A DNA stretch of 41,395 nucleotides from Candidatus Saccharimonadales bacterium (GCA_041747695.1 JBGTET010000012.1:1-41395), one strand, 5' to 3'; positions 256-14,935 are shown, counted from the stretch's first letter. The notes: generated by a model from the letters alone, not told the origin. Numbers and translations are program-made.

Positions 256-801
256 TTAGTCTAGCTGATACTCCCATCCGGGTTGCCAAGCGTGAGTTTT
301 GCGCCAATCGGTCGCAAAAGCTTCTTCCCATGTCATATCTCTGAGTAAGACATCTAGAGCAATTTGCGGTGCCTTGTGTGCAACTATTGCTACATGCTGT
401 CCATCATAGTTTTCTGTCAGATACTTTAGAAATTCGGCAATTCGCTTTTTGACATGCTCGTAGCTCTCACCATTTTCGAAAGCGTTATTTATTGATTCTT
501 CCTGAAGTGGCTCTACAACACTAGATGGTTTGCCGTTAAAGTCGCCGTAGTTACATTCACGGAGTCTTTTGTCGTGGATAATTTTGTACTTATTGCCCCA
601 TGTAATTTTAGCGGAGTCTACTGCCCGTTTTTGATCAGATGCAAATACAATATCGAAAGTTTGGTGTTGAGTTTGTTGCCTTAATTCTTCGGCCTGTTTA
701 ATCCCAAGCGCAGAAAGTCCGCAATCAGACCATCCAGAAGAAATCTCATTTTCATTGTCGACCGTGGTTCCATGCACAAAATAAGTGATCTTTACTGTCA
801 T
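256..801 (-). CDS. histidine phosphatase superfamily protein (phosphoglycerate-mutase-like)
   Basis: Family landmarks occur in order: FVHGTT (RHG position, Arg replaced by Val), SDQKRAVDSA, LRECNYGDFNG, ENGESYEHVKKR, AIVAHKAP (second His). Divergent from the 848-5154 operon across 46 bp. Confidence 0.8.
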   Translation of the reverse strand: MTVKITYFVHGTTVDNENEISSGWSDCGLSALGIKQAEELRQQTQHQTFDIVFASDQKRAVDSAKITWGNKYKIIHDKRLRECNYGDFNGKPSSVVEPLQEESINNAFENGESYEHVKKRIAEFLKYLTENYDGQHVAIVAHKAPQIALDVLLRDMTWEEAFATDWRKTHAWQPGWEYQLD

Positions 802-807
802 GCATAA

Positions 808-816
808 AGTATAGCA
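808..816 (-). promoter_or_regulatory. extended -10 element (TGCTATACT) 6 nt upstream of the ATG at 801; implies a leaderless mRNA
   Basis: The minus strand reads TGCTATACT-TTATGC-ATG. There is no room for a Shine-Dalgarno sequence. Confidence 0.5.
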
Positions 817-832
817 AGCAACCCTATAACGA

Positions 833-841
833 TGTTACTAT
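833..841 (+). promoter_or_regulatory. extended -10 element (TGTTACTAT) 6 nt upstream of the ATG at 848; implies a leaderless mRNA
   Basis: The plus strand reads TGTTACTAT-TTACGC-ATG. It is back-to-back with the 808-816 element. Confidence 0.45.
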
Positions 842-847
842 TTACGC

Positions 848-2113
848 ATGAATGAAGAAACAAAATACATAGATATTACCCCTCACAGAAGTATACTCAC
901 AAAAATCAGTCAGACAGGATACTCGATACAAGAAGCTTTATCGGAACTGATCGATAACGCTATTGACGCCAGAATAAGCGAAACTGTTTTAAACGTTTCA
1001 GTAGACATTTCTGCAGACTCGATAGTCGTGACTGACGATGGAACCGGCATGACGGAGGAACTGGCCAGTAAATCAATCCGACTGGGATTTTCAGAAAAAA
1101 AACAGCAACTCGGCGAGTTTGGGCTTGGATTAAAAACATCGACCTCATTTCTGGGACAGGGCTTCACTCTAACCACTTCGCCTAAAGGATCTGACGAAGA
1201 GTACGAGATAAATTATGACGCAGATGATTGGCTGGAAAATGGTGATTGGTACAAATATCCGTTTGTAGTCAGAAAAGGCATAGACACTAACAAGAGTGGA
1301 ACTAAAGTCGAAGTCCACAAGCTGAGAGTCCATATTACAGATAAGTTATTAGCGAGCATTAGGGAGGAATTTGGTCTACGATTTGGTCCATTCATTCAAA
1401 ACAAGGAACTTAATCTAATATTTAATGGCGAGCCATGTCCGCCATTTGTTCCATCTATACTTGATGACAAGAAAAACGAATTCTCATTTGATTTCCCAGG
1501 CGGTAAAGCTTGGGGGTGGTGGGGTTATCAATTAAGCGGACTAAACAAAAGCTATTATGGTTTTCACACGTATAGGCGCGGTCGATTAGTCACTACATAC
1601 GATAAAGTTGGGCTTACTCCAAACCAAGACATTAAACAAATAATCGGTGACTTGCATATCGAAGGCATCCCAATTAATCATGATAAAAAGAACTTTGCTA
1701 AAACTTCAGAGGGCTACCGAAGTATGGAAGATCAAATGCGGGTGTACTTTAAGCCATTTGAGAAAAAACCAAAACGAATACTGAGTGGATACGCAGCATC
1801 GGCAGGACGTGTCAGAGGTACGGTAAAAATGATCCGAACAACCGCACACAACACAGACATCCAAAAAGTGCTAGAAAACGTCAAGCATGGCGACATTATT
1901 GTTACAGAAATGACTAGACCTCAGTATCTGCTAGCCATAAGACGATCGGCCGGAATAATAACTAACCTAGGCGGAAATTTGTGTCACGCTGCAATTGTGT
2001 CACGTGAATTTAACATCCCTTGCGTGGTTGGAACCCAAAATGCTACCGACTTGCTGGTTGAAGGTAAAAAAGTAATCCTAGACGGAAATGACGGTTATAT
2101 TTATGAAGATTGA
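848..2113 (+). CDS. fusion protein: N-terminal GHKL (Bergerat-fold, MORC/MutL/Hsp90-type) ATPase plus C-terminal PEP-utilizer swivel phosphohistidine domain
   Basis: GHKL motifs are present: ELIDNAIDA (N box), DDGTGM (G1), GEFGLGLK (G2). The C-terminal ~110 aa carries the near-canonical swivel motif GGNLCHAAIVSREFNIPCVVG (His codon CAC at 1985-1987, residue 380) and ends ...ILDGNDGYIYED. Confidence 0.8.
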   Translation: MNEETKYIDITPHRSILTKISQTGYSIQEALSELIDNAIDARISETVLNVSVDISADSIVVTDDGTGMTEELASKSIRLGFSEKKQQLGEFGLGLKTSTSFLGQGFTLTTSPKGSDEEYEINYDADDWLENGDWYKYPFVVRKGIDTNKSGTKVEVHKLRVHITDKLLASIREEFGLRFGPFIQNKELNLIFNGEPCPPFVPSILDDKKNEFSFDFPGGKAWGWWGYQLSGLNKSYYGFHTYRRGRLVTTYDKVGLTPNQDIKQIIGDLHIEGIPINHDKKNFAKTSEGYRSMEDQMRVYFKPFEKKPKRILSGYAASAGRVRGTVKMIRTTAHNTDIQKVLENVKHGDIIVTEMTRPQYLLAIRRSAGIITNLGGNLCHAAIVSREFNIPCVVGTQNATDLLVEGKKVILDGNDGYIYED

Positions 2114-3260
2114 TGACCATGTACTAAAATTCCCAAAGTCGTTACCAAACGATGAGCAGGAATTCATGATCTACTATCCGTATAAGTTCCCTGCAGTAAT
2201 TGATTTTTACGAACAAAAGGCTCAAGAGTTATATGCAAATCCAGAAGGCTACGCTCAATTTGTTCAAGATGAATTTAAAGAACTCGAGGCTGCTGTAGAA
2301 AAGGTACGAGACGAGTTCGAGAATGGCAACAAAGATGACTTGGCATTTCTTGTTACGATAGATCAGAAATTCAATAAAATATTCTGTTTCAAATTTTGGG
2401 TTATAAACTATGTTTTCGCAGACGGTTTGATACATGAGTTTTATGTCGACCAGCTCAAAGCCTTTGCCAGAAAAATGGTAGATGTTGGTGACGACATCGA
2501 AGAATATGAACGTCGAATAATCCAGATCCAACGAGATTTGCTACAAACAGATTACGCCGACATATATTTGGTCCAAGCGCTTCATGGCGTTACCGTCATG
2601 AATTTTCTAGAGCAAGATGAATTTTCTAGAGATATAGTTAAAGAAATTGTTGCCCTAATTGATGAACACGACGACAAGAATAACGAAAAGATTATAGAGT
2701 TATGGAAACCAATCGTTGATAAAATTCTAGACCCTAACGACAACCACTACGGTCCACTCACTGACTACCCAGATGATTACGAGTTTAAGAATCTACTTGG
2801 CTTGCCACCTCTAGAGCTTCCGATTAATCAGGTTAGGATGCGCAAAATTCCTTTCCCACTGTATAGCTTCCTGAGTCACACTGTAGAGTTTCGTGAGCAG
2901 AACGTTGCGCTAACCGAGCGTCATAAGAATATGAAGGACACGATTGAGGAAATATTTGTCGAAGCCAAGGGTAAGATGGAGGAAGAGGAGTACTCAGACT
3001 TTAGGCTAGCGTACGAAATGGCCAAAAACTTTTCTATGTCCAAAGATCTTATGGGCAACGTAGATCCAATCTTGGTCCCAGTTTGGGAGGGTGACGTCCA
3101 TAAACGCATATACGAAATTTTATCCAAGGATAATAAAGTAAGGTATCCATCGGTAAGCCATGCGTCAATGTTTGGAAGCTTTGCATGGTACCTACCTGCG
3201 GATTTAAAAGCCCAGGTTATGTCGCCAGACAATACATCATTTAACTTTGAGGAGATTTAG
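2088..3260 (+). CDS. hypothetical acidic, probably helical protein (orphan member of the operon)
   Basis: 390-aa ORF overlapping the upstream stop. An alternative ATG at 2103 (MKIDDHVL...) gives an 11-nt overlap. I recognise no motif. It occupies the slot that a substrate-binding module would fill. Confidence 0.6.
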   Translation: MTVIFMKIDDHVLKFPKSLPNDEQEFMIYYPYKFPAVIDFYEQKAQELYANPEGYAQFVQDEFKELEAAVEKVRDEFENGNKDDLAFLVTIDQKFNKIFCFKFWVINYVFADGLIHEFYVDQLKAFARKMVDVGDDIEEYERRIIQIQRDLLQTDYADIYLVQALHGVTVMNFLEQDEFSRDIVKEIVALIDEHDDKNNEKIIELWKPIVDKILDPNDNHYGPLTDYPDDYEFKNLLGLPPLELPINQVRMRKIPFPLYSFLSHTVEFREQNVALTERHKNMKDTIEEIFVEAKGKMEEEEYSDFRLAYEMAKNFSMSKDLMGNVDPILVPVWEGDVHKRIYEILSKDNKVRYPSVSHASMFGSFAWYLPADLKAQVMSPDNTSFNFEEI

Positions 3261-3262
3261 CA

Positions 3263-4054
3263 ATGAGCGGAGAACAACAATTAGCACCTATGTCGGGCGG
3301 CAGAATGGAAATGCGAGTCCAGCGTCACGATGATCATGTCGAGGGACACTTAACACCTGAAGGACACGAACATGCAAAGCAGGTAGCAACCGAAGTAGTT
3401 AATGAATACTTGGATGCGAATTCTGATACTCATTTTATGGTTATTTGTTCAGACCAAATTTGGGATGAAAATGAACCAGACTTGGGCGGAGTGCGTGCAA
3501 AAGAAACAGCTAAAGATATCACCGAGACGATAAAAGATGCGCTTTTCGAAAGAGGTTTGCCAGCTGATCAATTATTTGGAAGCACCGGTGACGATGCAGA
3601 TGAAGGTGATGTAACAGTTAGCCCAGTCTTACGCGAAGCAAATATTTTCTCAAATAAGTTCATGCAACATCTTAGGGAGACGTACCCCGATGACAATGCT
3701 TGGAGTTTGTATTATCAAGACCAAGATGCCGACACTAGGAGAGAGAAGCACGCCGAGAGTCCTCATGATTTGGCGAGGCGCATGGACTATATGATCAAAA
3801 CTGCCGAAATGGTTGGAGCTTCTTTACACAGAACACCAGGCAAAGAGGACTCGCCACTGCTTGTGTGGGTAGTTGGTCATGGTGGCGGATTAGATTCGTA
3901 CTTGCATCATTATGCCGATGTCCCATTAGAAGAACTTGGTTTCGAACTTAGCGGAGGCTTTACCCTAAAAGCATCGTCAGAACATGGAGTTGTGGCAGAC
4001 GTTAAGGGCAAAGAATATCCTATTAGATCAGATGAGACAATGAGCCTTCCGTAA
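3263..4054 (+). CDS. histidine phosphatase superfamily-like protein (divergent, with acidic insertion)
   Basis: VQRHDDHVEGHLTPEGHEHAKQVA (RHG-like RHD), ICSDQ...VRAKETA, and VWVVGHGGGLDSYL (second His). GAGGAG Shine-Dalgarno sequence 8-13 nt upstream, inside the preceding gene. Starts 2 nt after the upstream stop. Confidence 0.6.
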   Translation: MSGEQQLAPMSGGRMEMRVQRHDDHVEGHLTPEGHEHAKQVATEVVNEYLDANSDTHFMVICSDQIWDENEPDLGGVRAKETAKDITETIKDALFERGLPADQLFGSTGDDADEGDVTVSPVLREANIFSNKFMQHLRETYPDDNAWSLYYQDQDADTRREKHAESPHDLARRMDYMIKTAEMVGASLHRTPGKEDSPLLVWVVGHGGGLDSYLHHYADVPLEELGFELSGGFTLKASSEHGVVADVKGKEYPIRSDETMSLP

Positions 4055-4881
4055 TGAGCTTTGTAAAGTTCTTCGAAGACGTTAACGTAGACGACCTTAG
4101 TCTCGTTGGAGGTAAGGGTCTTTCGCTAGGTAGAATGATCAACGCCGGAATTCCTGTACCGTCAGGTTTTGTCATTACAACAAAGTTACATGAGGAATTT
4201 AAGAATAATGGCGAAATTACTGAGCAGACTATTGTTGAGCTAAACGATGCATTTGATAAATTGGGTGCTGAACGTGTTGCGGTACGCTCATCGGCTATAT
4301 CCGAGGATTCAGAAACTGCATCATGGGCTGGACAGTTTGAAAGTTACCTAAATGTTGGCAGAAACGACTTAATTGCCAGATTAAAGGATTGTTGGGATTC
4401 TGTTAAGGCAGCGAGCGACTATGCACAGACACAGGGCATGAAGCAAGAAGATCTTGTCTTGGGAGTAGTTGTACAGAAAATGGTAGACAGTGATGTTTCT
4501 GGTGTCGCGTTTAGCGTGAATCCGATCAGCCACAATTCTGATGAAATAATGATAGAAGCAACCTATGGGCTCGGAGAACTGCTAGTCCAAGGTATGGTTA
4601 CGCCTGACAACTATGTAACGTCAAAAAGTGGGGGCAACACAATAAACAAAAATATTGCAGTAAAAAAAACTAGGCTAATTTATAAAGACAGCGACACCGT
4701 GGAAGCACCTGTAGATGCGAGTATGCAAGAAGAAGCCTGCTTATCAGAAAAACAACTTGTCGAACTAAGCCTGCTAATTTGTCGAATCGAAGATTATTAC
4801 GGCAGTCCGCAAGACATTGAGTGGGCTCTACAAGATAATGAATTCCATATAGTACAATCTAGGCCAATAACGACATCTTAA
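4054..4881 (+). CDS. stand-alone PPDK_N-type ATP-grasp (PEP/pyruvate-binding-family nucleotide-binding) domain protein
   Basis: VGGKGLSLGRM, GIPVPSGFVIT, VAVRSSAISEDSETASWAGQFESYLNV, VVVQKMV, GVAFSVNP and QDIEWA..IVQSRPIT. The protein stops where the swivel and substrate domains would follow in PpsA/PPDK/RPH. The start overlaps the upstream stop (TAATG). Confidence 0.85.
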   Translation: MSFVKFFEDVNVDDLSLVGGKGLSLGRMINAGIPVPSGFVITTKLHEEFKNNGEITEQTIVELNDAFDKLGAERVAVRSSAISEDSETASWAGQFESYLNVGRNDLIARLKDCWDSVKAASDYAQTQGMKQEDLVLGVVVQKMVDSDVSGVAFSVNPISHNSDEIMIEATYGLGELLVQGMVTPDNYVTSKSGGNTINKNIAVKKTRLIYKDSDTVEAPVDASMQEEACLSEKQLVELSLLICRIEDYYGSPQDIEWALQDNEFHIVQSRPITTS

Positions 4882-4887
4882 ACATGT

Positions 4888-5154
4888 ATGAAGCATCTAA
4901 GCATAACTCTGACCGGTAAAGTTCAACGCATAGGAATGCGATACAAAATAATGGAATACGCCGAATTGAATAACCTTCGCGGCTATACGCGAAATCTACG
5001 GGACGGTAATGTTTACATTGAAGTCGAAGGAGATGGCCCAGTTATTGATAAATTTCTGGAATGGCTAAAATCTAGTCCCGGTCTTTCGGAGGTTAAAAAT
5101 TTAGAAACAACTGAAGGGACTATCCGGCACTTCAGAGATTTTCAGGTATTTTAG
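4888..5154 (+). CDS. acylphosphatase
   Basis: 88 aa. LTGKVQRIGMRYK...LRGYTRNLRDGNVYIEVEGDG matches the V.G.VQGVGFR / G.V.N..DG.VE pattern, with the catalytic Arg and Asn retained. Confidence 0.8.
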   Translation: MKHLSITLTGKVQRIGMRYKIMEYAELNNLRGYTRNLRDGNVYIEVEGDGPVIDKFLEWLKSSPGLSEVKNLETTEGTIRHFRDFQVF

Positions 5155-5569
5155 AAGGTAGTGCTTTAAAATCTATATCTGAAATTTTAGCCTTCAGGTC
5201 ATTTATGTCTGCGAATCTAAAAGAGAAGTCGGCCATATCTGGCACATATGTGTATCCGACCAAATCATGAGTTGCCACGACAACGGGGATTTTCTTTGCT
5301 ATCGCTAAACCAATCTCCATTAACATGCCTTCGCTTTTGTTGTCTGATATTTGGACAACAAATAACAAGTCTCTAGCAGAAATTAATTCGAACGCATGAT
5401 CCATTATTTGTCTTGGACCCATTTTTTTATTCTGAAATTCTGCTTCATCAAAAAATGTGCAGTACACCTCAACATCTGCATTCTTCAACGCATCTCTAAT
5501 GCCAGCAAGTAGTTCGCTTAAAACTTCTTCGCTTTCGCCGGTATGCCTGTAGGATACAAATGCTTGCAT
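5132..5569 (-). CDS. nucleoside 2-deoxyribosyltransferase-like (Rossmann/TIR-like fold) protein
   Basis: ELISARDLLFVVQISDNKSEGMLMEIGLAIAKKIPVVV matches the ..aD.vva.......s.G...E.G.A.a.gkPv. core of the NDT family. Its 3' end overlaps the acylphosphatase 3' end by 23 nt (convergent). Confidence 0.55.
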   Translation of the reverse strand: MQAFVSYRHTGESEEVLSELLAGIRDALKNADVEVYCTFFDEAEFQNKKMGPRQIMDHAFELISARDLLFVVQISDNKSEGMLMEIGLAIAKKIPVVVATHDLVGYTYVPDMADFSFRFADINDLKAKISDIDFKALPSKIPENL

Positions 5570-5570
5570 C

Positions 5571-5879
5571 CTATTTGACCTTAAACCGATTCTTGTCTCT
5601 TACTTTTGCTTTAACAAGAACTTTTTCAATTTCTTCGTTCAAGTTTATCTTGTGTCTGTTTGCTATGCAGACTAGCGCAAATATCACATCTGCGAGTTCT
5701 TCTCCAAGTTCCTGGCGCGCTTCTTCGACCTTTTTTGGTTTGGAACCATACATGTGATTTAGCAACCTGCCGACCTCTCCAACTTCTTCGGCAACACGAG
5801 CAAATTGACTCAGTGGCGGCCAATACGGTTCTTCTAAGGTTTGCGCCCAATCATCTATCGCTTTTTGTATCTCATCCAT
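5571..5879 (-). CDS. MazG-like nucleotide pyrophosphohydrolase (small single-domain type)
   Basis: EEVGEVGRLLN...ELGEELADVIFALVCIANRHKINLNEEIEKV gives the EExxE...ExxD helix pattern of all-alpha NTP pyrophosphatases. Its stop lies 1 nt before the downstream NDT-like start. Confidence 0.8.
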   Translation of the reverse strand: MDEIQKAIDDWAQTLEEPYWPPLSQFARVAEEVGEVGRLLNHMYGSKPKKVEEARQELGEELADVIFALVCIANRHKINLNEEIEKVLVKAKVRDKNRFKVK

Positions 5880-5950: not shown

Positions 5951-6520
5951 TTAGAACTTTACAGTATCGACTAATGTTTGTACTGCTTCTTCGTCTGGCA
6001 AAGTGCCTTCTTCTGTAGAATAGTATGTTACAGAAAGCTGGTTATCTCCAAAGAATTCATAGTTCACGCTTGGGCCACCGCCGTAATCTGCAGTCGACTT
6101 AATTACGTCGACACCATTGACTGAAACCACTTCACAATCATAGTCTTCGATAGGCTTAGACTCATTTATGCTAGCTACTTCGGCGTCTGTTAGGCAAGCT
6201 TCTGAGCTTGAATCAACGGTACTTTCCATTATTAGTACAGTGCTAGTGCGATCATCACAATCTACAGCTTTATCGCTGTCGGGGGATGCTAACACTCCTT
6301 TGGAATCTGCACTGTTACATTCTATTTCGCTCCAATTTTGAGGCAACAAATAGCTTGCGGACAAACCTTGTGCTGGCTCCTGAGCTTGTGTATTAGCATC
6401 GTCTTGAGTTTTATTGTCATTGCTTGTTCGCCAGTAGACAAATCCGCCCACTGCGAGCACTAAAACTAATACAATAACGAAAACGGGGTCAATTACGCCC
6501 TTTTGATTCTTTTTAAACAT
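5951..6520 (-). CDS. membrane-anchored extracytoplasmic protein (paralog A)
   Basis: The N-terminus MFKKNQKGVIDPVFVIVLVLVLAVGGFVYWRTS is near-identical to that of 8808-9416. The Cys-containing C-terminal domain is unrelated by eye. AAAGGAA Shine-Dalgarno sequence, with TGATATAAT further upstream. Confidence 0.65.
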   Translation of the reverse strand: MFKKNQKGVIDPVFVIVLVLVLAVGGFVYWRTSNDNKTQDDANTQAQEPAQGLSASYLLPQNWSEIECNSADSKGVLASPDSDKAVDCDDRTSTVLIMESTVDSSSEACLTDAEVASINESKPIEDYDCEVVSVNGVDVIKSTADYGGGPSVNYEFFGDNQLSVTYYSTEEGTLPDEEAVQTLVDTVKF

Positions 6521-8807: not shown

Positions 8808-9416
8808 CTAACTTGAAAGTTTTATACTTTCAACGATAGATTCAAAGTCATCGAGTAGAGCATCGTTTATACTTGCCGAGGCTGAATTTGTGTAATAGAA
8901 GTTATATCTATAGCCATCAACTGTTTCTTTCTCTTGATTGTCATCTTGTTTCAGAAATGCTCGGAATTCCTGGTTGTCCAAATCGCAAAATCCTTCATCC
9001 TCGCTACAAACAGTTTTGTTTGACGATGTAACTGTAAATGCATCTCCTTGATTATTAACCTGATACCGCCAAGAAATATCGGACATCACACCCCTGCCTC
9101 CTCCTGGTTCAACTTGCACCTCAACTGTATGTGTGCCGTTTTCATAAACATAGTACTTACCAGTGGCTTGACCAATTTCTCCTTTTACCTCCTTTAACAA
9201 CCAGCCATCAGGTAGATCGACTGTGAACAGTTCTTCATCACTGTTTTCTTCTTCAACAACTTCCTCGTTTTGGACTTGTGTTGTTTGTGTCACTGGCTGT
9301 GGAGTTTCTTCTTTTTGAGTTGTTCGCCAATATATAAAGCCGCCTACAGCCAACACTAAAACTAATACAATAATGAATATCGGGTCGATTACGCCCTTTT
9401 GATTTCTTTTGAACAT
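8808..9416 (-). CDS. membrane-anchored extracytoplasmic protein (paralog B)
   Basis: The N-terminus MFKRNQKGVIDPIFIIVLVLVLAVGGFIYWRTT and the upstream leader are near-identical to those of 5951-6520. The C-terminal domain differs. Confidence 0.65.
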   Translation of the reverse strand: MFKRNQKGVIDPIFIIVLVLVLAVGGFIYWRTTQKEETPQPVTQTTQVQNEEVVEEENSDEELFTVDLPDGWLLKEVKGEIGQATGKYYVYENGTHTVEVQVEPGGGRGVMSDISWRYQVNNQGDAFTVTSSNKTVCSEDEGFCDLDNQEFRAFLKQDDNQEKETVDGYRYNFYYTNSASASINDALLDDFESIVESIKLSS

Positions 9417-9480: not shown

Positions 9481-9556
9481 TGGTGGGGCAGGTTGGATTT
9501 GAACCAACGGCCAATCAGTTATGAGCCGACTGCTCTAACCACTGAGCTACTGCCCC
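9481..9556 (-). tRNA. tRNA with CAT anticodon (elongator Met, or Ile2 if lysidine-modified)
   Basis: Hand-folded 76-nt cloverleaf: GGGGCAG-TA-GCTC-AGTGGTTA-GAGC-A-GTCGG-CTCATAA-CTGAT-TGGCC-GTTGG-TTCAAAT-CCAAC-CTGCCCC-A-CCA. It lacks the three G:C pairs of initiator tRNAs. Confidence 0.85.
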
Positions 9557-9600: not shown

Positions 9601-9993
9601 ATGAATTTAAACCCTCGTAAAATACTCGAATCCGCGCAACTCAGTACAATTATCGCTGGCGTTATCGCTTTGTCGCTAATTTGGAGCACGATAAAGACTA
9701 TTCAGAAAAATTATCAGTTGCAAGGTCAAGTTGATTCCCTCGAGGAAGAAATATCAATTCTGGAGCTAGAAAACGAGAATCTTAAGCTTGGTATTGAGTA
9801 CTACAAAACCGACACATACTTAGAATTAGAGGCTCGTCAGAAGTTTAACAAGGCAGGCGCCAACGAAAGTGTCTTACTTTTGCCAAAAGATGGGGACGGA
9901 CCTGACGCAAATCAGAATGGTCAAGAAGAAGACTCTGAACCCTCCAATTTTCAGCAATGGAAGTACTTCCTTTTTGGCAATAGCGCCGATTGA
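9601..9993 (+). CDS. septum formation initiator family protein (FtsB/DivIC-like)
   Basis: An N-terminal TM helix, then the coiled coil LQGQVDSLEEEISILELENENLKLGIEYYKTDTYLELEARQKFN. Confidence 0.7.
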   Translation: MNLNPRKILESAQLSTIIAGVIALSLIWSTIKTIQKNYQLQGQVDSLEEEISILELENENLKLGIEYYKTDTYLELEARQKFNKAGANESVLLLPKDGDGPDANQNGQEEDSEPSNFQQWKYFLFGNSAD

Positions 9994-10046: not shown

Positions 10047-10121
10047 CGCGGGGTGGAGCAGTGGCAGCTCGTTGGGCTCATAACCCAAAGGTCGTAGGTT
10101 CGAATCCTACCCCCGCTACCA
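10047..10121 (+). tRNA. initiator tRNA-fMet (CAT)
   Basis: CGCGGGG-TG-GAGC-AGTGGCA-GCTC-G-TTGGG-CTCATAA-CCCAA-AGGTC-GTAGG-TTCGAAT-CCTAC-CCCCGCT-A-CCA. It has three consecutive G:C pairs closing the anticodon stem and an unpaired 1:72 position (C:U). Confidence 0.9.
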
Positions 10122-11819: not shown

Positions 11820-12731
11820 ATGTACACTGTATATATGAGGTATCCAACCACCCTTATTGAAGCAGTCCGTTACTTCTCTAAAACAGAGGTATGTATTGAA
11901 TACATGGCATCTCTACGGTGGCCAAACGGTGCTATTTGCCCAACCTGTGGTCGTATAGACGTTAGTTATCTCAAAAGCCAGCAACGCTACCAATGCAAGT
12001 CTCGCCACCCCAAAAGGCAGTTCTCAGTTAAAGTCGGCACAATCTTTGAAGATAGCCCACTCGGTCTAGATAAATGGCTACCTGCCGTCTGGATGATCAT
12101 AAACGCTAAGAATGGCGTCAGCTCCTACGAGATAGCCCGTGCATTAGGCGTAACCCAAAAGACAGCTTGGTTCATGGATCACCGTATCCGTGCTGCTATG
12201 GCTTACGGTGGCTTTGACAAGCTAGATGACCCAGTAGAGGCTGACGAAACCTACATAGGTGGTAAATCTAATCCTGATGAACGTTGGAAGAATAAATCAG
12301 CAGTTGTTGGCATAGTTGAGAAGAAAAAGGAAGTCGGTCAAATCAGAGCCTTTGCTACTAAACATGCTGACGCGACAAATACCATGCCGTTCCTCAAAGC
12401 TACGCTAAACGAAGGTGCTGTATTGCACACGGACGAAAGCCGAATTTACACACGTGCTAAATGGCTGTTTATCCATGATTCGGTAAATCATAGCCAGGGT
12501 GAATATGCTCGTGGCTTAGTGTCCACTACAACCATAGATGGCTTCTGGAACTTAATGAAACGGTCAATTAAAGGCACTTACACGCATGTTTCAGGTAATC
12601 ATTTAGGCAGATATGTAGACGAGCACACCTACCGCTACAATACCCGCATGCTCAAGGACGGTGAGAGGTTTAATCAGTGGTTTGGGAACTGTAACAGGCG
12701 GCTTATGTATAAGACTTTGGTTAATAAATAG
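11820..12731 (+). CDS. IS1595-family transposase (N-terminal zinc ribbon plus ISXO2-like DDE domain)
   Basis: LRWPNGAICPTCG...YQCKSRHPKRQFSVKVGTIFEDSPL, KWLPAVWMIINAKNGVSSYEIARALGVTQKTAWFMDHRIR, ADETYIGG, and LHTDESRIY. Confidence 0.85.
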   Translation: MYTVYMRYPTTLIEAVRYFSKTEVCIEYMASLRWPNGAICPTCGRIDVSYLKSQQRYQCKSRHPKRQFSVKVGTIFEDSPLGLDKWLPAVWMIINAKNGVSSYEIARALGVTQKTAWFMDHRIRAAMAYGGFDKLDDPVEADETYIGGKSNPDERWKNKSAVVGIVEKKKEVGQIRAFATKHADATNTMPFLKATLNEGAVLHTDESRIYTRAKWLFIHDSVNHSQGEYARGLVSTTTIDGFWNLMKRSIKGTYTHVSGNHLGRYVDEHTYRYNTRMLKDGERFNQWFGNCNRRLMYKTLVNK

Positions 12732-12851
12732 ACAGTTTTAATTTATACCCCCACGAGCGGAGGTCTAAATACTGCTTGTGTCTATCTGTTAGCGTTCGGA
12801 TATAGTGGTACCTACCTTTATACATATAGGGAGTAGGAGGGTTTGGCTTAA

Positions 12852-13700
12852 ATGAAGACACTAGATCTACCGAAAATAACCTACAGACAAAAAGAGATTA
12901 TTGATCTTATATATAAACATAGATACTTAACTAGAATACAGTTGCAAGCATTCCTAAAACATAAAGACAAAAAGAATACCTACCTATGGCTTAAAGACTT
13001 GAGAAGCAAAGGCTATATAGATTGGATATATAACAAAGCTAGCTTTATAGATAAAAGTACACCAGCTATTTATTACCTTTCCAAGAACGCCATAAACCGT
13101 TATCGCTACTGGGGCGTGCATGATGAAGCAGAGCTGCATAAACGCTACAAAGACAAGGATCGTAGCCGTAGCTTTGTTGATCGCTGTTTGCTCCTAGCTG
13201 ACATTGGTGTAACCTTACACAGCTTTGATGAAACAAAAGATCATATACGTACCTGCTACTACTATGAAACAGAAGCAGATTATCTTGGAGCTGGTATGTA
13301 CCACTTCCTTGTCGAAAGTGAATACATTCGTCCTAATCTCTGTTTCACCAAATTACATGACGATGGCTTGAATGAAATGGAAGTTATTGAAAGCTATCTA
13401 CTGGAAATCTTTGACAGCGAACTGCCACAGTACCGTATGCGCTACCGACTTAAACAATATGTCACCTACATGGATGAAGAGCTTGGTATCTGGGAAGACG
13501 AAACATTTAACGATCCAAAACCCATTATCTTATTTGTTTGCACAAAACTTACTGATTTGATCTACGCCAAACGACGAACACGAGGACTGATAGCAGACAT
13601 CTGGGAAAAGGATGATGAGGAACGACCGCATATACGCTTTACTACTGCTGAGAAGCTCAAGGAGCATGGTGTTATGGGGAAGATTTGGGAGGAAGCGTAG
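12852..13700 (+). CDS. replication-relaxation family-like protein (winged-helix N-terminus)
   Basis: ITYRQKEIIDLIYKHRYLTRIQLQAFL resembles the N-terminal signature of Replic_Relax proteins from plasmids and ICEs. GGAGG Shine-Dalgarno sequence upstream. Assigned from memory of the family only. Confidence 0.45.
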   Translation: MKTLDLPKITYRQKEIIDLIYKHRYLTRIQLQAFLKHKDKKNTYLWLKDLRSKGYIDWIYNKASFIDKSTPAIYYLSKNAINRYRYWGVHDEAELHKRYKDKDRSRSFVDRCLLLADIGVTLHSFDETKDHIRTCYYYETEADYLGAGMYHFLVESEYIRPNLCFTKLHDDGLNEMEVIESYLLEIFDSELPQYRMRYRLKQYVTYMDEELGIWEDETFNDPKPIILFVCTKLTDLIYAKRRTRGLIADIWEKDDEERPHIRFTTAEKLKEHGVMGKIWEEA

Positions 13701-13876
13701 TACATATTTTAGTTCGTCTCCCTTATGGCCCTCCATTCCTGTAATGCCTTGACTGTGGGTTACTTTGCGACAACGAAGAGCTAACAAAAAAGAGCGATGA
13801 TTTCTGCAGAGAGTATAATACGTGTGGTTCGGATATCTCAAAGCATTCTCTTGAAGCTAATAAAGCAACAACGAGT

Positions 13877-14935
13877 TTAATGCTTAAAGTGCAAATAAGC
13901 TTTGACTATAAGAACAGAAACTATTATAGACGCAAATACGGCAGCTAAAACTTTGTAGAGCGTTGTTTTTGAATTTTTGTTTGTGGCAACTTCAGACTGC
14001 TGTTCAGGGTCGCTAGTGGTATTTGTGTTTTGGCTTGATGGTAGTTGTGAATTAGATTTTGGCGATACATCAGTTGGATTAGAATCCGCAGGGTTATTAT
14101 TCGTTGATGGAGTCGATGAATTTGTATTTGATGTTGTAGTTGATGGCGTGCTTGAATTTGTATTTGATGAAGCCACTCCGAGGCTTCCCCCGCTCCAGTT
14201 TTCAAAAACTGCGGTTGGGTATGTAGTTGTTGTACCAACACCAAGCCGCATGGTTAGGCCTGGAGTGCCGTTAGATATAGAAGAGGCAGCACTATCTGTT
14301 GCCGATAATACTAAAGCTCCATTTCGGTAGCCTTTTAATTCGACTGGGTTTGTGGCTCTAACCTCAAGGCGCAATACATCACCATTTTGTGGTCCTGAAA
14401 CTGTATTATTAGAGGCAAGAATTCGTACTTGTGCTGTTGGTACACCGTCATACTTTAATTGCCATTCATCTACAAGACCATCATTGGGATCGGCGTCATA
14501 ATGGAATGCATATCGTGCTGAATCACTCGAACGTCTTCGAACAAATACCTGAGTAAGCATGGAGCTGACTTTATTGGGTGAAATAGTTGCTTCAGAAAAT
14601 TGATCGGCATTTAAGGTTGAGCCAACCCAACTTACAATGCCCGCACCGCTAAGTGCTGTTAGGCCAACATCACTCTGATTGACAATACCAACGTTTCCGA
14701 AGTTTACAGTCCACGAAGATCCTAAACTTTGTCTTTCAAAGTTATCAGAAACAACGTCGTAATCGCCAGACGCAGCCTGGGTGTATTTCAATGTACTGTA
14801 CCCAGCTGATGCAAACCCAATTAACAGGATAACTACTAGGTATCGTCGTACTTTACTTTGCTTAAAGTTGCTGAGCTTGCATAACCAAGCGTTGTATTTC
14901 TTGGCAATAAGCTTTTGCTTGGCAGGTGTAGTCAT
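13877..14935 (-). CDS. cell-surface protein: N-terminal signal anchor, globular (possibly lectin/LamG-like) domain, Ser/Thr-rich repeat stalk, C-terminal TM anchor
   Basis: I prefer the internal ATG at 14935 (MTTPAKQ), which leaves a 4-nt gap to the upstream stop rather than the 80-nt overlap of the 15019 start. TM YLVVILLIGFASAGY; repeat SSNTNSSTPST x2; C-terminal LAAVFASIIVSVLIV. Confidence 0.6.
   Translation of the reverse strand: MTTPAKQKLIAKKYNAWLCKLSNFKQSKVRRYLVVILLIGFASAGYSTLKYTQAASGDYDVVSDNFERQSLGSSWTVNFGNVGIVNQSDVGLTALSGAGIVSWVGSTLNADQFSEATISPNKVSSMLTQVFVRRRSSDSARYAFHYDADPNDGLVDEWQLKYDGVPTAQVRILASNNTVSGPQNGDVLRLEVRATNPVELKGYRNGALVLSATDSAASSISNGTPGLTMRLGVGTTTTYPTAVFENWSGGSLGVASSNTNSSTPSTTTSNTNSSTPSTNNNPADSNPTDVSPKSNSQLPSSQNTNTTSDPEQQSEVATNKNSKTTLYKVLAAVFASIIVSVLIVKAYLHFKH

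What the first reader, a model, noticed from the sequence alone, without database searches (positions are those of the whole stretch)
256..5154. Coupled operon: a disassembled PpsA/PPDK/rifampin-phosphotransferase-type His phosphorelay wired to a GHKL ATPase, with three phosphatases
Seen in sequence: five plus-strand genes (848-5154) are packed with junctions of -26 (or -11), +2, -1 (TAATG) and +6 nt. A sixth gene is divergent across only 46 bp.

Gene content:
- a GHKL ATPase fused to a PEP-utilizer swivel phospho-His domain
- a 390-aa orphan
- a divergent histidine-phosphatase-like protein
- a stand-alone PPDK_N ATP-grasp domain
- an acylphosphatase with its catalytic Arg and Asn intact
- a second histidine-phosphatase-family protein, on the divergent gene

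Established knowledge: in PEP synthase, PPDK and rifampin phosphotransferase, the ATP-grasp domain charges the swivel His, and the swivel His delivers phosphate to a third, substrate-binding domain. All three domains sit on one polypeptide. The histidine phosphatase superfamily includes the phospho-His phosphatase SixA.

Inference: here the relay is split across separate genes. I could not recognise a PEP/pyruvate TIM-barrel domain. The swivel is instead tethered to a MORC/MutL/Hsp90-type ATPase. Three hydrolases that could reset phospho-His or acyl-phosphate intermediates are co-encoded.

I do not know of a described system with this composition. It could be a phosphotransferase acting on a small molecule or antibiotic. 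It could also be a conflict or defence-type module in which GHKL activity is gated by phospho-His.
Basis: partly seen in the sequence, partly recalled or inferred. Interest (0 to 1): 0.85.

Follow-up and report, generated by a model that had tools for sequence, protein, structure and literature searches.

The report
MORC-type ATPase with phospho-histidine swivel
A conserved four-gene cassette in ultra-small (CPR) bacteria and some gut Clostridia joins a MORC-like molecular-clamp ATPase to the phosphate-carrying "swivel" domain of PEP synthase-type enzymes, and pairs it with a separate charging enzyme, a phosphatase and a protein of unknown fold; I found no published description of this combination.

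Summary
The six ORFs, their junctions and all domain calls are confirmed. Across 37 loci carrying the GHKL-S5-swivel fusion (Patescibacteria/CPR and gut Clostridia), the all-helical orphan follows in 37/37, typically with a conserved 11-nt overlap. A catalytically intact histidine-phosphatase-family gene is present in 36/37, and a stand-alone PPDK_N ATP-grasp in 32/37. The acylphosphatase and the divergent His_Phos_1 gene occur only in this window, so they are local neighbours. The orphan is not a PEP/pyruvate TIM barrel and not an Rph-type rifampin-binding domain. It has no structural match, and its family is found only next to swivel genes. Split dikinases with a stand-alone ATP-grasp are already known (PpsAB, CreHI, HpeHI). 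Tethering the swivel to a MORC-type ATPase, plus a dedicated phosphatase, appears undescribed. Best reading: the ATP-grasp charges His380, the phosphatase resets the system, and the phospho-swivel acts on or through the GHKL-S5/orphan complex. The target and the biological role (conflict system, DNA-related housekeeping, or small-molecule phosphorylation) remain open. I found no link to a defence island, phage or plasmid.

The parts
848..2113 (+). Core gene 1: MORC-type GHKL (Bergerat) ATPase plus S5-fold transducer plus a C-terminal PEP-utilizer swivel phospho-His domain, 421 aa. GHKL is about aa 25-125 (nt 920-1222), S5 about aa 227-297 (nt 1526-1738), swivel about aa 346-416 (nt 1883-2095).
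   Evidence: Pfam hits to HATPase_c_3, Morc6_S5 and PEP-utilizers. Invariant E33/N37/D40, D63xGxG67, G89EFGLG94, H278DKK281 and C379-H380 in 22 diverse homologues. AF2 model with pLDDT 79; the best Foldseek hits are MORC3/4/2, then GyrB, TRAP1/Hsp90, SMCHD1 and TopoVI-B.
1985..1987 (+). Codon CAC for His380, the predicted phospho-carrier histidine in the motif GGNLCHAAIVSR.
   Evidence: Read from the sequence. Invariant in alignment A1. The motif matches GGxT(S/C)HAA(I/V)(I/V)(A/S)R as described for PEP synthase, Rph and HpeH (PMC12167813), except that Leu replaces the regulatory Thr.
2103..3260 (+). Core gene 2: all-alpha partner protein of unknown fold, 385 aa (an alternative ATG at 2088 gives 390 aa). 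It overlaps gene 1 by 11 nt.
   Evidence: Present directly downstream in 37/37 fusion loci. The 11-nt overlap is conserved in CPR and Clostridia, and even for the most divergent family members. AF2 pLDDT 87, entirely helical. No significant PDB or BFVD match. No Pfam, NCBIfam, PADLOC or PHROG hit. Only 44 clusters among 1.84 billion representatives, none fused to another domain.
3263..4054 (+). Core gene 3: divergent member of the histidine phosphatase superfamily (branch 1), 263 aa, with the catalytic residues intact.
   Evidence: His_Phos_1 at 29 bits against a cut-off of 21.7. The family is present in 36/37 fusion loci; the one miss is a contig end. R21-H22 and H206-G207 are invariant in 29/29, R78 in 27/29 and E125 in 26/29. 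Some sources name homologues 'histidine phosphatase family protein' or 'PhoE'.
4054..4881 (+). Core gene 4: stand-alone PpsA/Rph-type ATP-grasp nucleotide-binding subunit (PPDK_N only), 275 aa.
   Evidence: PPDK_N at 6e-75. The best solved relatives are the ATP-grasp parts of PEP synthase 8a8e and Rph 5hv6/5fbs, plus a 387-aa chain deposited as 'Phosphoenolpyruvate synthase' (9goj). Found within 8-10 kb in 32/37 fusion loci.
4888..5154 (+). Acylphosphatase, 88 aa. It is a local downstream neighbour, not a conserved part of the system.
   Evidence: Pfam Acylphosphatase at 2e-18. Found next to the cassette in 1/37 loci, the window only. It overlaps the convergent gene 5132-5569 by 23 nt.
256..801 (-). 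Canonical His_Phos_1 phosphatase, 181 aa, divergent across 46 bp. It is a local neighbour, not a conserved part of the system.
   Evidence: His_Phos_1 at 4e-30; the best NCBIfam resemblance, to alpha-ribazole phosphatase, is far below that model's cut-off. Found next to the cassette in 1/37 loci, the window only.

Best explanation
Window 848-4881 is a conserved, self-contained four-gene module. It is built on the chemistry of two-component PpsA/Rph-type dikinases, but with a different second site.

Step 1 (inferred from family chemistry). The stand-alone ATP-grasp protein (4054-4881) binds ATP and transfers the beta-phosphate, through a pyrophosphoryl intermediate, to His380 on the C-terminal swivel domain of the GHKL-S5 protein (848-2113). 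PpsB, CreI and HpeI do the same for their partner subunits.

Step 2 (inferred). The phospho-swivel, on its flexible tether, docks on the module it is bound to: the MORC-type GHKL-S5 ATPase together with its obligate, translationally coupled all-alpha partner (2103-3260). There it either gates the ATP-driven clamp cycle or hands the phosphate to a substrate held by that complex.

Step 3 (inferred). The catalytically intact histidine-phosphatase-family protein (3263-4054) removes the phosphate, from phospho-His380 (as SixA does for its targets) or from the phosphorylated target. This makes the mark reversible.

In short, the module looks like a phospho-His writer/eraser circuit wired to a MORC-like ATPase engine and a dedicated partner. 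The acylphosphatase and the divergent His_Phos_1 gene are not part of it. The biological role is unresolved. I lean slightly towards a DNA- or conflict-related function carried on a horizontally mobile accessory cassette.
For: Shown:
- Domain identities.
- Invariance of all GHKL ATP-binding and catalytic motifs, the S5 HDKK motif and the carrier His380 in homologues of 53-84% identity.
- The full catalytic tetrad in the phosphatase family.
- Synteny: orphan 37/37, phosphatase family 36/37, ATP-grasp 32/37, across Patescibacteria classes and Clostridia.
- A conserved 11-nt overlap between the swivel gene and the orphan, even for orphan relatives at 20-23% identity. This argues for coupled translation and a stoichiometric complex.
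- The orphan family exists only in this context.

From established knowledge:
- Stand-alone ATP-grasp subunits charge a swivel His on a separate polypeptide in PpsAB, CreHI and HpeHI (PMC12167813).
- A PPDK-derived protein can act as an autophosphorylating regulatory kinase (VadK, PMC13400623).
- In all characterised relatives the swivel is covalently tethered to its second (acceptor) site.

Also, nine of the 37 loci add further swivel-carrying proteins next to the ATP-grasp gene. This is consistent with one charger serving several swivel clients.
Against: - No biochemical evidence exists for any step.
- Four fusion loci with at least 5 kb of downstream sequence (L030, L032, L064, L065) have no ATP-grasp gene nearby. 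The charger may be unlinked, or dispensable.
- No GHKL ATPase is known to be regulated by, or to accept phosphate from, a swivel domain.
- The C-terminal swivel-like domain of Geobacillus pyruvate kinase (2e28, matched) shows that such domains can be fused to enzymes outside the dikinase family (its role: own knowledge).
- The phosphatase might act on a small-molecule product rather than on phospho-His.
- The promoter and terminator scans say nothing about operon structure.
- No complex of the four proteins could be modelled here.
Confidence: 0.55

Rival explanations
1. It is a small-molecule (antibiotic, xenobiotic or metabolite) dikinase of the Rph/HpeHI type. The acceptor binds in the Bergerat pocket of the GHKL domain, or in an aromatic-lined pocket of the all-alpha orphan, and is phosphorylated by phospho-His380. 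The phosphatase-family protein processes the product or acts as a mutase. The GHKL fold is the target of natural products such as novobiocin and radicicol, so it could serve here as the drug-binding domain of a resistance enzyme.
For: - Every biochemically characterised system with a stand-alone PpsA-type ATP-grasp subunit phosphorylates a small molecule, as does Rph (PMC12167813).
- The best full-length family resemblances for the ATP-grasp and swivel include Rph, PigC and RedH.
- The orphan's invariant positions are dominated by aromatic residues (W99, Y103, Y155, Y304, W328, W362), with no evident catalytic constellation, as expected for a binding pocket.
- Regulators with GyrI-like, drug-sensor-type domains sit next to the cassette in the Clostridia loci (an AraC-type regulator directly upstream) and 4 kb away in L065 (a MerR-type regulator).
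- The window flank carries a glyoxalase/bleomycin-resistance-family gene and a methyltransferase.
Against: - The orphan shows no sequence-profile or structural similarity to the Rph/HpeH substrate-binding domain.
- The GHKL general base E33, the Mg-binding N37, the ATP lid and the S5 lysine motif are all invariant. A mere ligand-binding decoy would not need them.
- A co-conserved phosphatase would undo a resistance phosphorylation.
- The 53-92% identity across phyla is unusual for a xenobiotic-specific enzyme.
Confidence: 0.22
2. It is an anti-phage or other conflict system. A MORC/paraMORC-like DNA clamp is armed or disarmed by His380 phosphorylation, and the orphan is the effector or sensor.
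For: - Prokaryotic MORC and paraMORC GHKL-S5 proteins are predominantly components of restriction-modification-type systems (PMC2292703).
- The only defence-library and NCBIfam resemblances of the GHKL part are to MzaB, BbrUII/HgiDII restriction enzymes and TmtA.
- The cassette is patchily distributed, yet highly similar between Patescibacteria and Clostridia.
- Its flanks differ even between 84-94% identical copies.
- The window carries an IS1595 transposase and a Replic_Relax gene within 12 kb.
Against: - No nuclease, helicase, methylase or other recognised effector is linked to it in any of the 37 loci.
- No PADLOC system matches.
- It is not found as a fusion in the phage, plasmid or IMG/VR collections.
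- The neighbours are mostly housekeeping or miscellaneous genes.
- Its sequence conservation is far higher than is typical for defence genes.
- Its GC content equals that of the contig.
Confidence: 0.25
3. The nucleotide chemistry is coupled in one of two ways. In the first, the swivel re-phosphorylates the nucleotide held in the GHKL site. In the second, the GHKL domain acts like a histidine-kinase catalytic domain and phosphorylates His380, with the ATP-grasp running in the PPDK-like ATP-forming direction. Either way the module would be an energy- or nucleotide-handling device for metabolically reduced cells.
For: - In histidine kinases, GHKL domains transfer the gamma-phosphate to a histidine, and the PPDK reaction is reversible (established knowledge).
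- The hosts are reduced-genome Patescibacteria and small-genome Clostridia.
- In this window the neighbours are nucleotide-related: MazG, and a protein resembling nucleoside 2-deoxyribosyltransferase.
Against: - The GHKL module is of the MORC/MutL/GyrB type, with an S5 transducer, not the histidine-kinase type.
- There is no precedent.
- The nucleotide-related neighbours are not conserved.
- It explains neither the orphan nor the phosphatase.
Confidence: 0.06
4. The six genes are merely adjacent, and the packing reflects a compact CPR genome rather than a shared function.
For: - CPR genomes are gene-dense (own knowledge).
- Two of the six genes (the acylphosphatase and the divergent His_Phos_1) do turn out to be unrelated neighbours.
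Against: - The four core genes keep their order and orientation across phyla, in 32-37 of 37 loci.
- The orphan family occurs nowhere else.
- The 11-nt overlap is conserved.
Confidence: 0.02

Closest known systems
Two-component small-molecule dikinases: phenylphosphate synthase PpsAB, CreHI, HpeHI (PMC12167813)
   Same: An ATP-grasp (PPDK_N-type) subunit encoded as a separate gene. A partner protein ends in a PEP-utilizer swivel domain with the conserved C/S-H-A-A motif near its C-terminus. The predicted chemistry is the same: beta-phosphate of ATP to the swivel His, then on to a second site.
   Different: In those enzymes the swivel is fused to an Rph-type helical domain that binds a phenolic substrate. 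Here it is fused to a MORC-type GHKL-S5 ATPase. The extra all-alpha protein is unrelated to the Rph domain. A histidine-phosphatase-family gene is co-conserved, and none is mentioned in the HpeHI paper. The acceptor is unknown.
Rifampin phosphotransferase (Rph; 5fbs, 5hv1), PEP synthase (8a8e) and PPDK
   Same: These are the closest solved relatives of both the ATP-grasp protein and the swivel domain. They use a three-site relay logic.
   Different: They are single polypeptides. Their acceptor domain is a TIM barrel (PpsA, PPDK) or a rifampin-binding helical domain (Rph), and neither is present here. They have no GHKL domain and no phosphatase.
MORC and prokaryotic MORC/paraMORC GHKL-S5 ATPases (PMC2292703); MORC2/3/4 structures
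   Same: A Bergerat-fold ATPase plus an S5 transducer, with all motifs intact. The top sequence and structure matches are MORC3, MORC4 and MORC2. Pfam Morc6_S5 hit.
   Different: Prokaryotic MORCs and paraMORCs are linked to helicases, methylases and endonucleases. This family is not. Its C-terminus is a phospho-His swivel, not a nuclease, TIR, coiled-coil or dimerisation region. The 2008 survey describes no swivel fusion.
SixA and other protein phosphatases of the histidine phosphatase superfamily
   Same: The core phosphatase (3263-4054) has the RH...R...E...HG catalytic set of branch 1. It is encoded beside a phospho-His carrier, the situation in which SixA-type phospho-His phosphatases act (established knowledge).
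   Different: It has only weak similarity to His_Phos_1 (29 bits) and no NCBIfam match. It carries long family-specific insertions. Its substrate is untested.
VadK (Rv1127c), a PPDK-derived autophosphorylating regulatory kinase of Mycobacterium tuberculosis (PMC13400623)
   Same: It is a precedent for PPDK-type ATP-grasp/swivel machinery being repurposed from metabolism to phospho-His-based regulation.
   Different: VadK, as described in that paper, is encoded by a single gene (rv1127c) and interacts with methylcitrate-cycle enzymes. The abstract mentions no GHKL, orphan or phosphatase partner.
Swivel-less GHKL-S5 paralogues (487-592 aa) of DPANN archaea, CPR, Acidobacteria and Actinobacteria (L033-L062)
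   Same: These are the closest sequence relatives of the GHKL-S5 part (34-46% identity over aa 1-310), with the same Pfam domains.
   Different: They carry an uncharacterised C-terminal region of about 200 aa instead of the swivel. They are solo genes with no conserved neighbours. They lack the orphan, phosphatase and ATP-grasp partners.

Membership tests
PpsA/PPDK/Rph-type (PEP-utilizer) dikinases, including the two-component subfamily | ATP-grasp nucleotide-binding domain (PPDK_N) | tested here: met
   PF01326 at E 6e-75, 253 bits, for 4054-4881. PDB relatives are PEP synthase and the Rph ATP-grasp.
PpsA/PPDK/Rph-type (PEP-utilizer) dikinases, including the two-component subfamily | Swivel (mobile) domain with the conserved carrier histidine motif GGxx(S/C)HAA | tested here: met
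   PF00391 at E 3e-24 for aa 346-416. GGNLCH380AAIVSR is present, with G375, G376, L378, H380, A381, A382 and I383 invariant and C379 nearly so.
PpsA/PPDK/Rph-type (PEP-utilizer) dikinases, including the two-component subfamily | Acceptor-binding domain of a known type (PEP/pyruvate TIM barrel, or Rph/HpeH-type helical domain) tethered to the swivel | tested here: not met
   No PEP-utilizers_C hit in any of the six proteins. The domain tethered to the swivel is GHKL-S5. The orphan has no Foldseek match to Rph or to any PDB entry, and hhalign against Rph-like proteins is negative.
PpsA/PPDK/Rph-type (PEP-utilizer) dikinases, including the two-component subfamily | ATP-dependent phosphorylation of the swivel His and onward transfer | not testable with these tools
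   Needs 32P-ATP labelling of the wild type and an H380A mutant.
MORC / paraMORC GHKL-S5 ATPases | Bergerat-fold motifs (ExxxN, DxGxG, GxxGxG lid) and an S5 transducer with a conserved lysine | tested here: met
   E33, N37, D40, D63, G67, G89-G94 and H278-D279-K280-K281 are invariant. HATPase_c_3 and Morc6_S5 hits. Top structural matches are MORC3/4/2.
MORC / paraMORC GHKL-S5 ATPases | Gene-neighbourhood link to helicase, methylase or endonuclease genes, as in restriction-modification systems (the prokaryotic members, PMC2292703) | tested here: not met
   No such conserved neighbour in the 37 loci. The conserved partners are the orphan, the phosphatase and the ATP-grasp.
MORC / paraMORC GHKL-S5 ATPases | Assignment to a named clade (MORC proper or paraMORC1-5) by family-specific motifs | not tested
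   No reference alignments of the paraMORC families were available, and no phylogeny was made.
Histidine phosphatase superfamily, branch 1 (gene 3263-4054) | Catalytic RHG-type His nucleophile, two Arg, an acid (Glu) and a second His | tested here: met
   R21-H22 and H206-G207 in 29/29, R78 in 27/29, E125 in 26/29. PF00300 at 29 bits against a cut-off of 21.7.
Histidine phosphatase superfamily, branch 1 (gene 3263-4054) | Phospho-His protein phosphatase activity (SixA-like) | not testable with these tools
   Inference from context only. No NCBIfam model matches.
Known anti-phage defence systems (PADLOC-DB v2; e.g. MZA) | Matches to the component proteins of a described system | tested here: not met
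   Only the first ~115 residues of the GHKL protein match MzaB (30 bits), with weaker matches to REase_II and TmtA. The other core proteins have no hits.
Acylphosphatase (gene 4888-5154), as part of the system | Co-conservation with the cassette | tested here: not met
   The Pfam Acylphosphatase hit is real, but the gene accompanies the cassette in 1/37 loci.

The most novel reading that the evidence does not exclude
The module is a new kind of phospho-histidine machine. A MORC-like GHKL-S5 clamp has its ATPase cycle written on and off by a dikinase-type ATP-grasp 'writer' and a dedicated histidine-phosphatase 'eraser'. Alternatively, the clamp uses the tethered phospho-swivel to phosphorylate a macromolecule (DNA, RNA, protein or a cell-envelope polymer) that it holds together with the orphan partner. 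The nearest analogy for the second case is glucan-water dikinase working with phosphoglucan phosphatases on starch. Related loci add several other swivel-carrying proteins, including an HTH-swivel protein. This could be the visible part of a broader signalling network in Patescibacteria, in which an ATP-grasp charges swivel domains, separate from two-component systems and the PTS.
Probability: 0.35. Interest if true: 0.9.

Novelty: new variant of a known kind. Interest (0 to 1): 0.72.

Why it matters
GHKL ATPases (gyrase, MutL, Hsp90, MORC) and PEP-utilizer swivel relays (PpsA, PPDK, PTS enzyme I, Rph) are two of the best-studied molecular machines, and I know of no description of them in one polypeptide. 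A conserved fusion, with its own charger, its own phosphatase and an exclusive partner of unknown fold, implies one of two things. It is either a new way of controlling a GHKL clamp, by covalent phospho-His, or a new class of acceptor for dikinase chemistry. The cassette is highly conserved in the Candidate Phyla Radiation, where most conserved genes of unknown function remain unexplained. It also occurs in widespread human-gut Clostridia, in one 90%-identity cluster with 613 sequences on 244 contigs. That offers a route to experiments in more tractable relatives. The four proteins are small and soluble-looking, so the central predictions can be tested directly in vitro.

Tried and rejected
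1. The orphan as a PEP/pyruvate TIM barrel (a simple split PpsA). Rejected: the confident AF2 model is entirely helical.
2. The orphan as an Rph/HpeH-type substrate-binding domain. Rejected: no Foldseek hit to Rph or anything else (best E 0.9, TM < 0.25), and hhalign against Rph-like proteins from related loci is negative.
3. The orphan as a split-off version of the C-terminal region of the swivel-less GHKL paralogues (gene fission). Rejected by hhalign.
4. The orphan with remote relatives or fusions elsewhere. An exhaustive profile search found only 44 clusters, all in the same stand-alone form. There are no PDB sequence hits, no viral fold hits, and no PHROG, PADLOC or NCBIfam hits.
5. The acylphosphatase and the divergent His_Phos_1 as system components. 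Rejected by synteny, 1/37 each.
6. A phage, plasmid or prophage origin. No fusion appears in the INPHARED phage, PLSDB plasmid or IMG/VR collections; only single-domain matches do.
7. Conserved partners of the swivel-less paralogues, which might have hinted at the function of the GHKL part. None were found.
8. Promoter and terminator scans to delimit the operon. The counts are at or below the shuffled expectation, so they are uninformative.
9. Literature. Six searches combining MORC, GHKL, MutL, swivel, PEP-utilizing, dikinase, PPDK, histidine phosphatase, anti-phage and Patescibacteria found no description of this architecture. Two candidate papers were checked and are unrelated or silent on it. 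The library lacks most subscription-journal papers, so absence is not proof.

Full report
OBSERVATION

The junctions were read directly from the sequence.
- The GHKL-swivel gene ends with TGA at 2111-2113.
- The next gene can start at ATG 2088 (26-nt overlap) or ATG 2103 (11-nt overlap).
- Two nucleotides separate 3260 from 3263.
- TAATG gives a 1-nt overlap at 4054.
- Six nucleotides separate 4881 from 4888.
- 46 bp separate the divergent gene (256-801, minus strand) from 848.

Profile searches support every domain call.
- 848-2113: HATPase_c_3, HATPase_c, Morc6_S5 and PEP-utilizers.
- 4054-4881: PPDK_N only.
- 4888-5154: Acylphosphatase.
- 256-801: a canonical His_Phos_1.
- 3263-4054: a weak but above-threshold His_Phos_1.
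- 2088-3260: nothing significant.

The carrier histidine is His380 (CAC, 1985-1987) in GGNLCHAAIVSR. This is the motif described for PEP synthase, Rph and HpeH, except that Leu replaces the regulatory Thr (PMC12167813).

WHAT THE UNIT REALLY IS

The GHKL-swivel protein has hundreds of close homologues (549 hits). The best 120 are nearly all full-length proteins with the same four Pfam domains, at 53-100% identity. Those that carry a name come from many Patescibacteria (CPR) lineages and from Clostridia. One 90%-identity cluster, whose named members are labelled Clostridium sp., holds 613 sequences on 244 contigs.

A scan of one genome per species returned 57 loci. I mapped homologues of all window proteins onto these loci and onto the loci fetched by exact-protein look-up. 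Counting the window, 37 loci carry the fusion.

| Gene | Loci | Note |
|---|---|---|
| All-helical orphan | 37/37 | directly downstream |
| Third-gene (histidine phosphatase) family | 36/37 | the one miss is a contig that ends 1.1 kb after the fusion gene |
| Stand-alone PPDK_N | 32/37 | within the fetched flank |
| Acylphosphatase | 1/37 | the window itself |
| Divergent His_Phos_1 | 1/37 | the window itself |

The last two are absent even from cassettes 94% (L006) and 84% (L007) identical to the window's, and the flanks of those cassettes differ completely. The functional unit is therefore four genes, 848-4881. The count of 'three phosphatases' reduces to one.

The overlap between the swivel gene and the orphan is 11 nt in called genes from Campbellbacteria, Clostridia and other CPR lineages. 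It holds even for the most divergent orphan relatives, which are 20-23% identical. This supports ATG 2103 as the start, and suggests translational coupling and a stoichiometric complex.

THE FOUR PARTS

1. GHKL-S5-swivel protein. In 22 homologues of 53-84% identity, the GHKL general base and Mg ligand (E33, N37, D40), DxGxG (D63, G67), the lid (G89EFGLG94), an S5 HDKK motif (278-281) and the swivel His380 are invariant, and Cys379 nearly so. Profile search against PDB sequences finds MORC3, MORC4 and MORC2 for the N-terminal part, and PEP synthase and Rph for the C-terminal part. An AF2 model (pLDDT 79, with the low-confidence stretches in the N-terminal strap and the ATP lid) matches MORC3/4/2 best, followed by GyrB, TRAP1/Hsp90, SMCHD1 and TopoVI-B. 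It is a catalytically competent-looking MORC-type ATPase module.

2. The orphan. AF2 gives a confident (pLDDT 87, pTM 0.77) all-helical model.
   - It has no significant match in the PDB (best E 0.9) or in BFVD, and no PDB sequence match.
   - It has no hit in Pfam, NCBIfam, PADLOC or PHROGs.
   - It is therefore neither the TIM barrel of PpsA/PPDK nor the rifampin-binding domain of Rph. hhalign against Rph-like proteins from related loci is also negative.
   - An exhaustive profile search of 1.84 billion representatives found just 44 clusters, all stand-alone proteins of 330-400 aa or fragments. The two divergent members I could place again sit directly after a gene ending in a swivel domain.
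   - Across the whole family the invariant positions are mostly aromatic or structural: P11, P30, W99, Y103, Y155, Y304, G318, W328 and W362. That fits a binding or scaffold partner better than an enzyme.

3. The phosphatase-family protein. Although divergent, it keeps the complete branch-1 catalytic set in all lineages: R21-H22 and H206-G207 in 29/29, R78 in 27/29 and E125 in 26/29. It is predicted to be active.

4. The ATP-grasp protein. It is a stand-alone PpsA/Rph-type nucleotide-binding domain.

WIDER CONTEXT

Nine of the 37 loci add further swivel-carrying proteins.
- Several have unannotated helical N-terminal regions, some of which align with the end of the Rph/PigC central domain.
- There are full Rph-like proteins (PPDK_N, helical region, swivel).
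- One protein has two swivel domains.
- One protein combines HTH_26 with a swivel.

This is consistent with one ATP-grasp charger serving several swivel clients.

The closest relatives of the GHKL-S5 part are proteins of 487-592 aa without a swivel, in DPANN archaea, CPR, Acidobacteria and Actinobacteria. They are solo genes with no conserved neighbours.

The fusion is not found in the phage, plasmid or IMG/VR collections. No defence system in PADLOC matches beyond a weak GHKL resemblance to MzaB. Flanking genes are heterogeneous, including sporulation genes, ABC transporters, peptidases and regulators.

In the window, the cassette lies at the contig end.
- Nearby are MazG, a protein resembling nucleoside deoxyribosyltransferase, and glyoxalase-family and methyltransferase genes.
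- Within 12 kb are an IS1595 transposase and a Replic_Relax gene.
- The cassette's GC content (41.8%) equals that of the contig.

By its closest relative (94% identity), the window is probably from a Saccharimonadia genome.

MECHANISM

Shown: the parts list, the intact catalytic residues, the strict co-occurrence and the coupling.

Inferred from family chemistry: the ATP-grasp protein charges His380 with the beta-phosphate of ATP. PpsB, CreI and HpeI do this for a swivel on a separate polypeptide (PMC12167813).

Inferred from architecture: in every characterised relative, the swivel is tethered to its second site. Here that site must be the GHKL-S5 module with its obligate helical partner. Phospho-His380 then either gates the ATPase clamp cycle or passes the phosphate to something the complex holds.

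Inferred from context: the co-conserved phosphatase resets phospho-His380 or the phosphorylated target. VadK, a PPDK-derived regulatory histidine kinase (PMC13400623), shows that this machinery can be repurposed for regulation.

I put about 0.55 on this writer/eraser-on-a-GHKL-engine reading. The rivals and my confidence in each:
- A small-molecule or antibiotic dikinase that uses the GHKL pocket or the orphan as the binding site: 0.22. In its favour, all characterised two-component dikinases act on small molecules, and GyrI-like drug-sensor regulators lie nearby in two lineages. Against it, the GHKL catalytic residues are invariant and a phosphatase is co-conserved.
- A conflict or defence role: 0.25. 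This overlaps with the main mechanistic reading. It has family precedent (PMC2292703) but no direct support.
- Nucleotide-recharging schemes: 0.06.
- Chance adjacency is refuted for the four-gene core.

COMPARISON AND NOVELTY

The relay half is a member-like variant of the known two-component dikinases. Two defining features are met (ATP-grasp, swivel with carrier His). One is tested and not met (a known type of acceptor domain).

The GHKL half meets the structural definition of MORC-type ATPases, but not the restriction-modification neighbourhood that typifies the prokaryotic members.

Six literature searches and two targeted readings found no description of a GHKL-swivel fusion or of this gene set. 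The library is incomplete, so this is absence of evidence only.

I rate it a new variant of a known kind: dikinase chemistry with an unprecedented acceptor and regulatory module. I put about a one-in-three chance on it being something categorically new, either a phospho-His-gated MORC-like machine or a macromolecule dikinase.

VERDICT

The unit is four genes, not six, and splitting of the relay is not new in itself. The GHKL-swivel fusion, with its exclusive partner and dedicated phosphatase, is a conserved and apparently undescribed system that can be tested experimentally. Interest 0.72.

Noticed in passing
L033-L062 (e.g. L033:7983-9569, L041:7983-9635, L055:7974-9524): A widespread family of swivel-less GHKL-S5 proteins (487-592 aa, 34-46% identical to window aa 1-310) in DPANN archaea, CPR, Acidobacteria and Actinobacteria. 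They carry an unannotated C-terminal region of about 200 aa and are solo genes with no conserved neighbours.
   Followed up: partly
L013:7244-10183; L012:5336-6871; L029:7020-8309, 11834-12934, 12928-14034; L031:11437-12507; L063:12440-13843: Extra proteins made of an unannotated helical N-terminal region plus a PEP-utilizers swivel sit inside 9 of the 37 cassettes. One 980-aa protein has two swivel domains. Several ATP-grasp genes there are full Rph-like fusions (L013:4934-7240, L016, L017). This suggests one charger serving several swivel clients.
   Followed up: partly
L064:203-1891: A 562-aa protein combining an HTH_26 DNA-binding domain with a C-terminal PEP-utilizers swivel, about 10 kb from a GHKL-swivel/orphan pair. 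It may be a transcription factor controlled by phospho-His.
   Followed up: no
L003-L005, L018-L020, L023-L028, L056 (Clostridia loci): In at least a dozen Clostridia loci (independent records) the contig ends only about 150-230 bp after the PPDK_N gene. This suggests a repeat (an IS element or rRNA operon) right next to the cassette in these genomes.
   Followed up: no
L006:149-1534 (minus strand): In the 94%-identical cassette, the divergent upstream gene is a 462-aa protein with a serine-recombinase-like N-terminus (YARKSSEQD...), where the window has His_Phos_1. This hints at mobility. I judged it by eye and did not check it by profile search.
   Followed up: no
window 11820-12731 and 12852-13700: An IS1595-family transposase (DDE_Tnp_IS1595 plus zinc ribbon) and a Replic_Relax-domain protein lie 7-9 kb downstream of the cassette. 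The first ~13 kb of the contig may be a variable or mobile region.
   Followed up: partly
window 9481-9556 (-), 10047-10121 (+), 9601-9993 (+): Two tRNA-Met (CAT) genes in divergent orientation flank a small DivIC-like (septum formation initiator) gene.
   Followed up: no
window 5951-6520 (-) and 8808-9416 (-): Two paralogous proteins share a nearly identical hydrophobic N-terminus (MFK[KR]NQKGVIDP.F.IVLVLVLAVGGF.YWRT) but have different C-terminal parts. They are probably membrane-anchored or secreted CPR surface proteins. There is no Pfam match, apart from a sub-threshold PsbP_2 hit for the second.
   Followed up: no
window 5132-5569 (-) and 5571-5879 (-): A protein resembling nucleoside 2-deoxyribosyltransferase and a MazG-type NTP pyrophosphohydrolase are convergent with the cassette. 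The first overlaps the acylphosphatase gene by 23 nt. Neither is conserved next to the cassette elsewhere.
   Followed up: partly
L007, L011, L031, L046: Contigs carrying CPR-like cassettes (53-84% identical) are labelled Burkholderiaceae or Gammaproteobacteria in their MAG titles. These are probably mis-binned Patescibacteria contigs rather than real proteobacterial occurrences.
   Followed up: no
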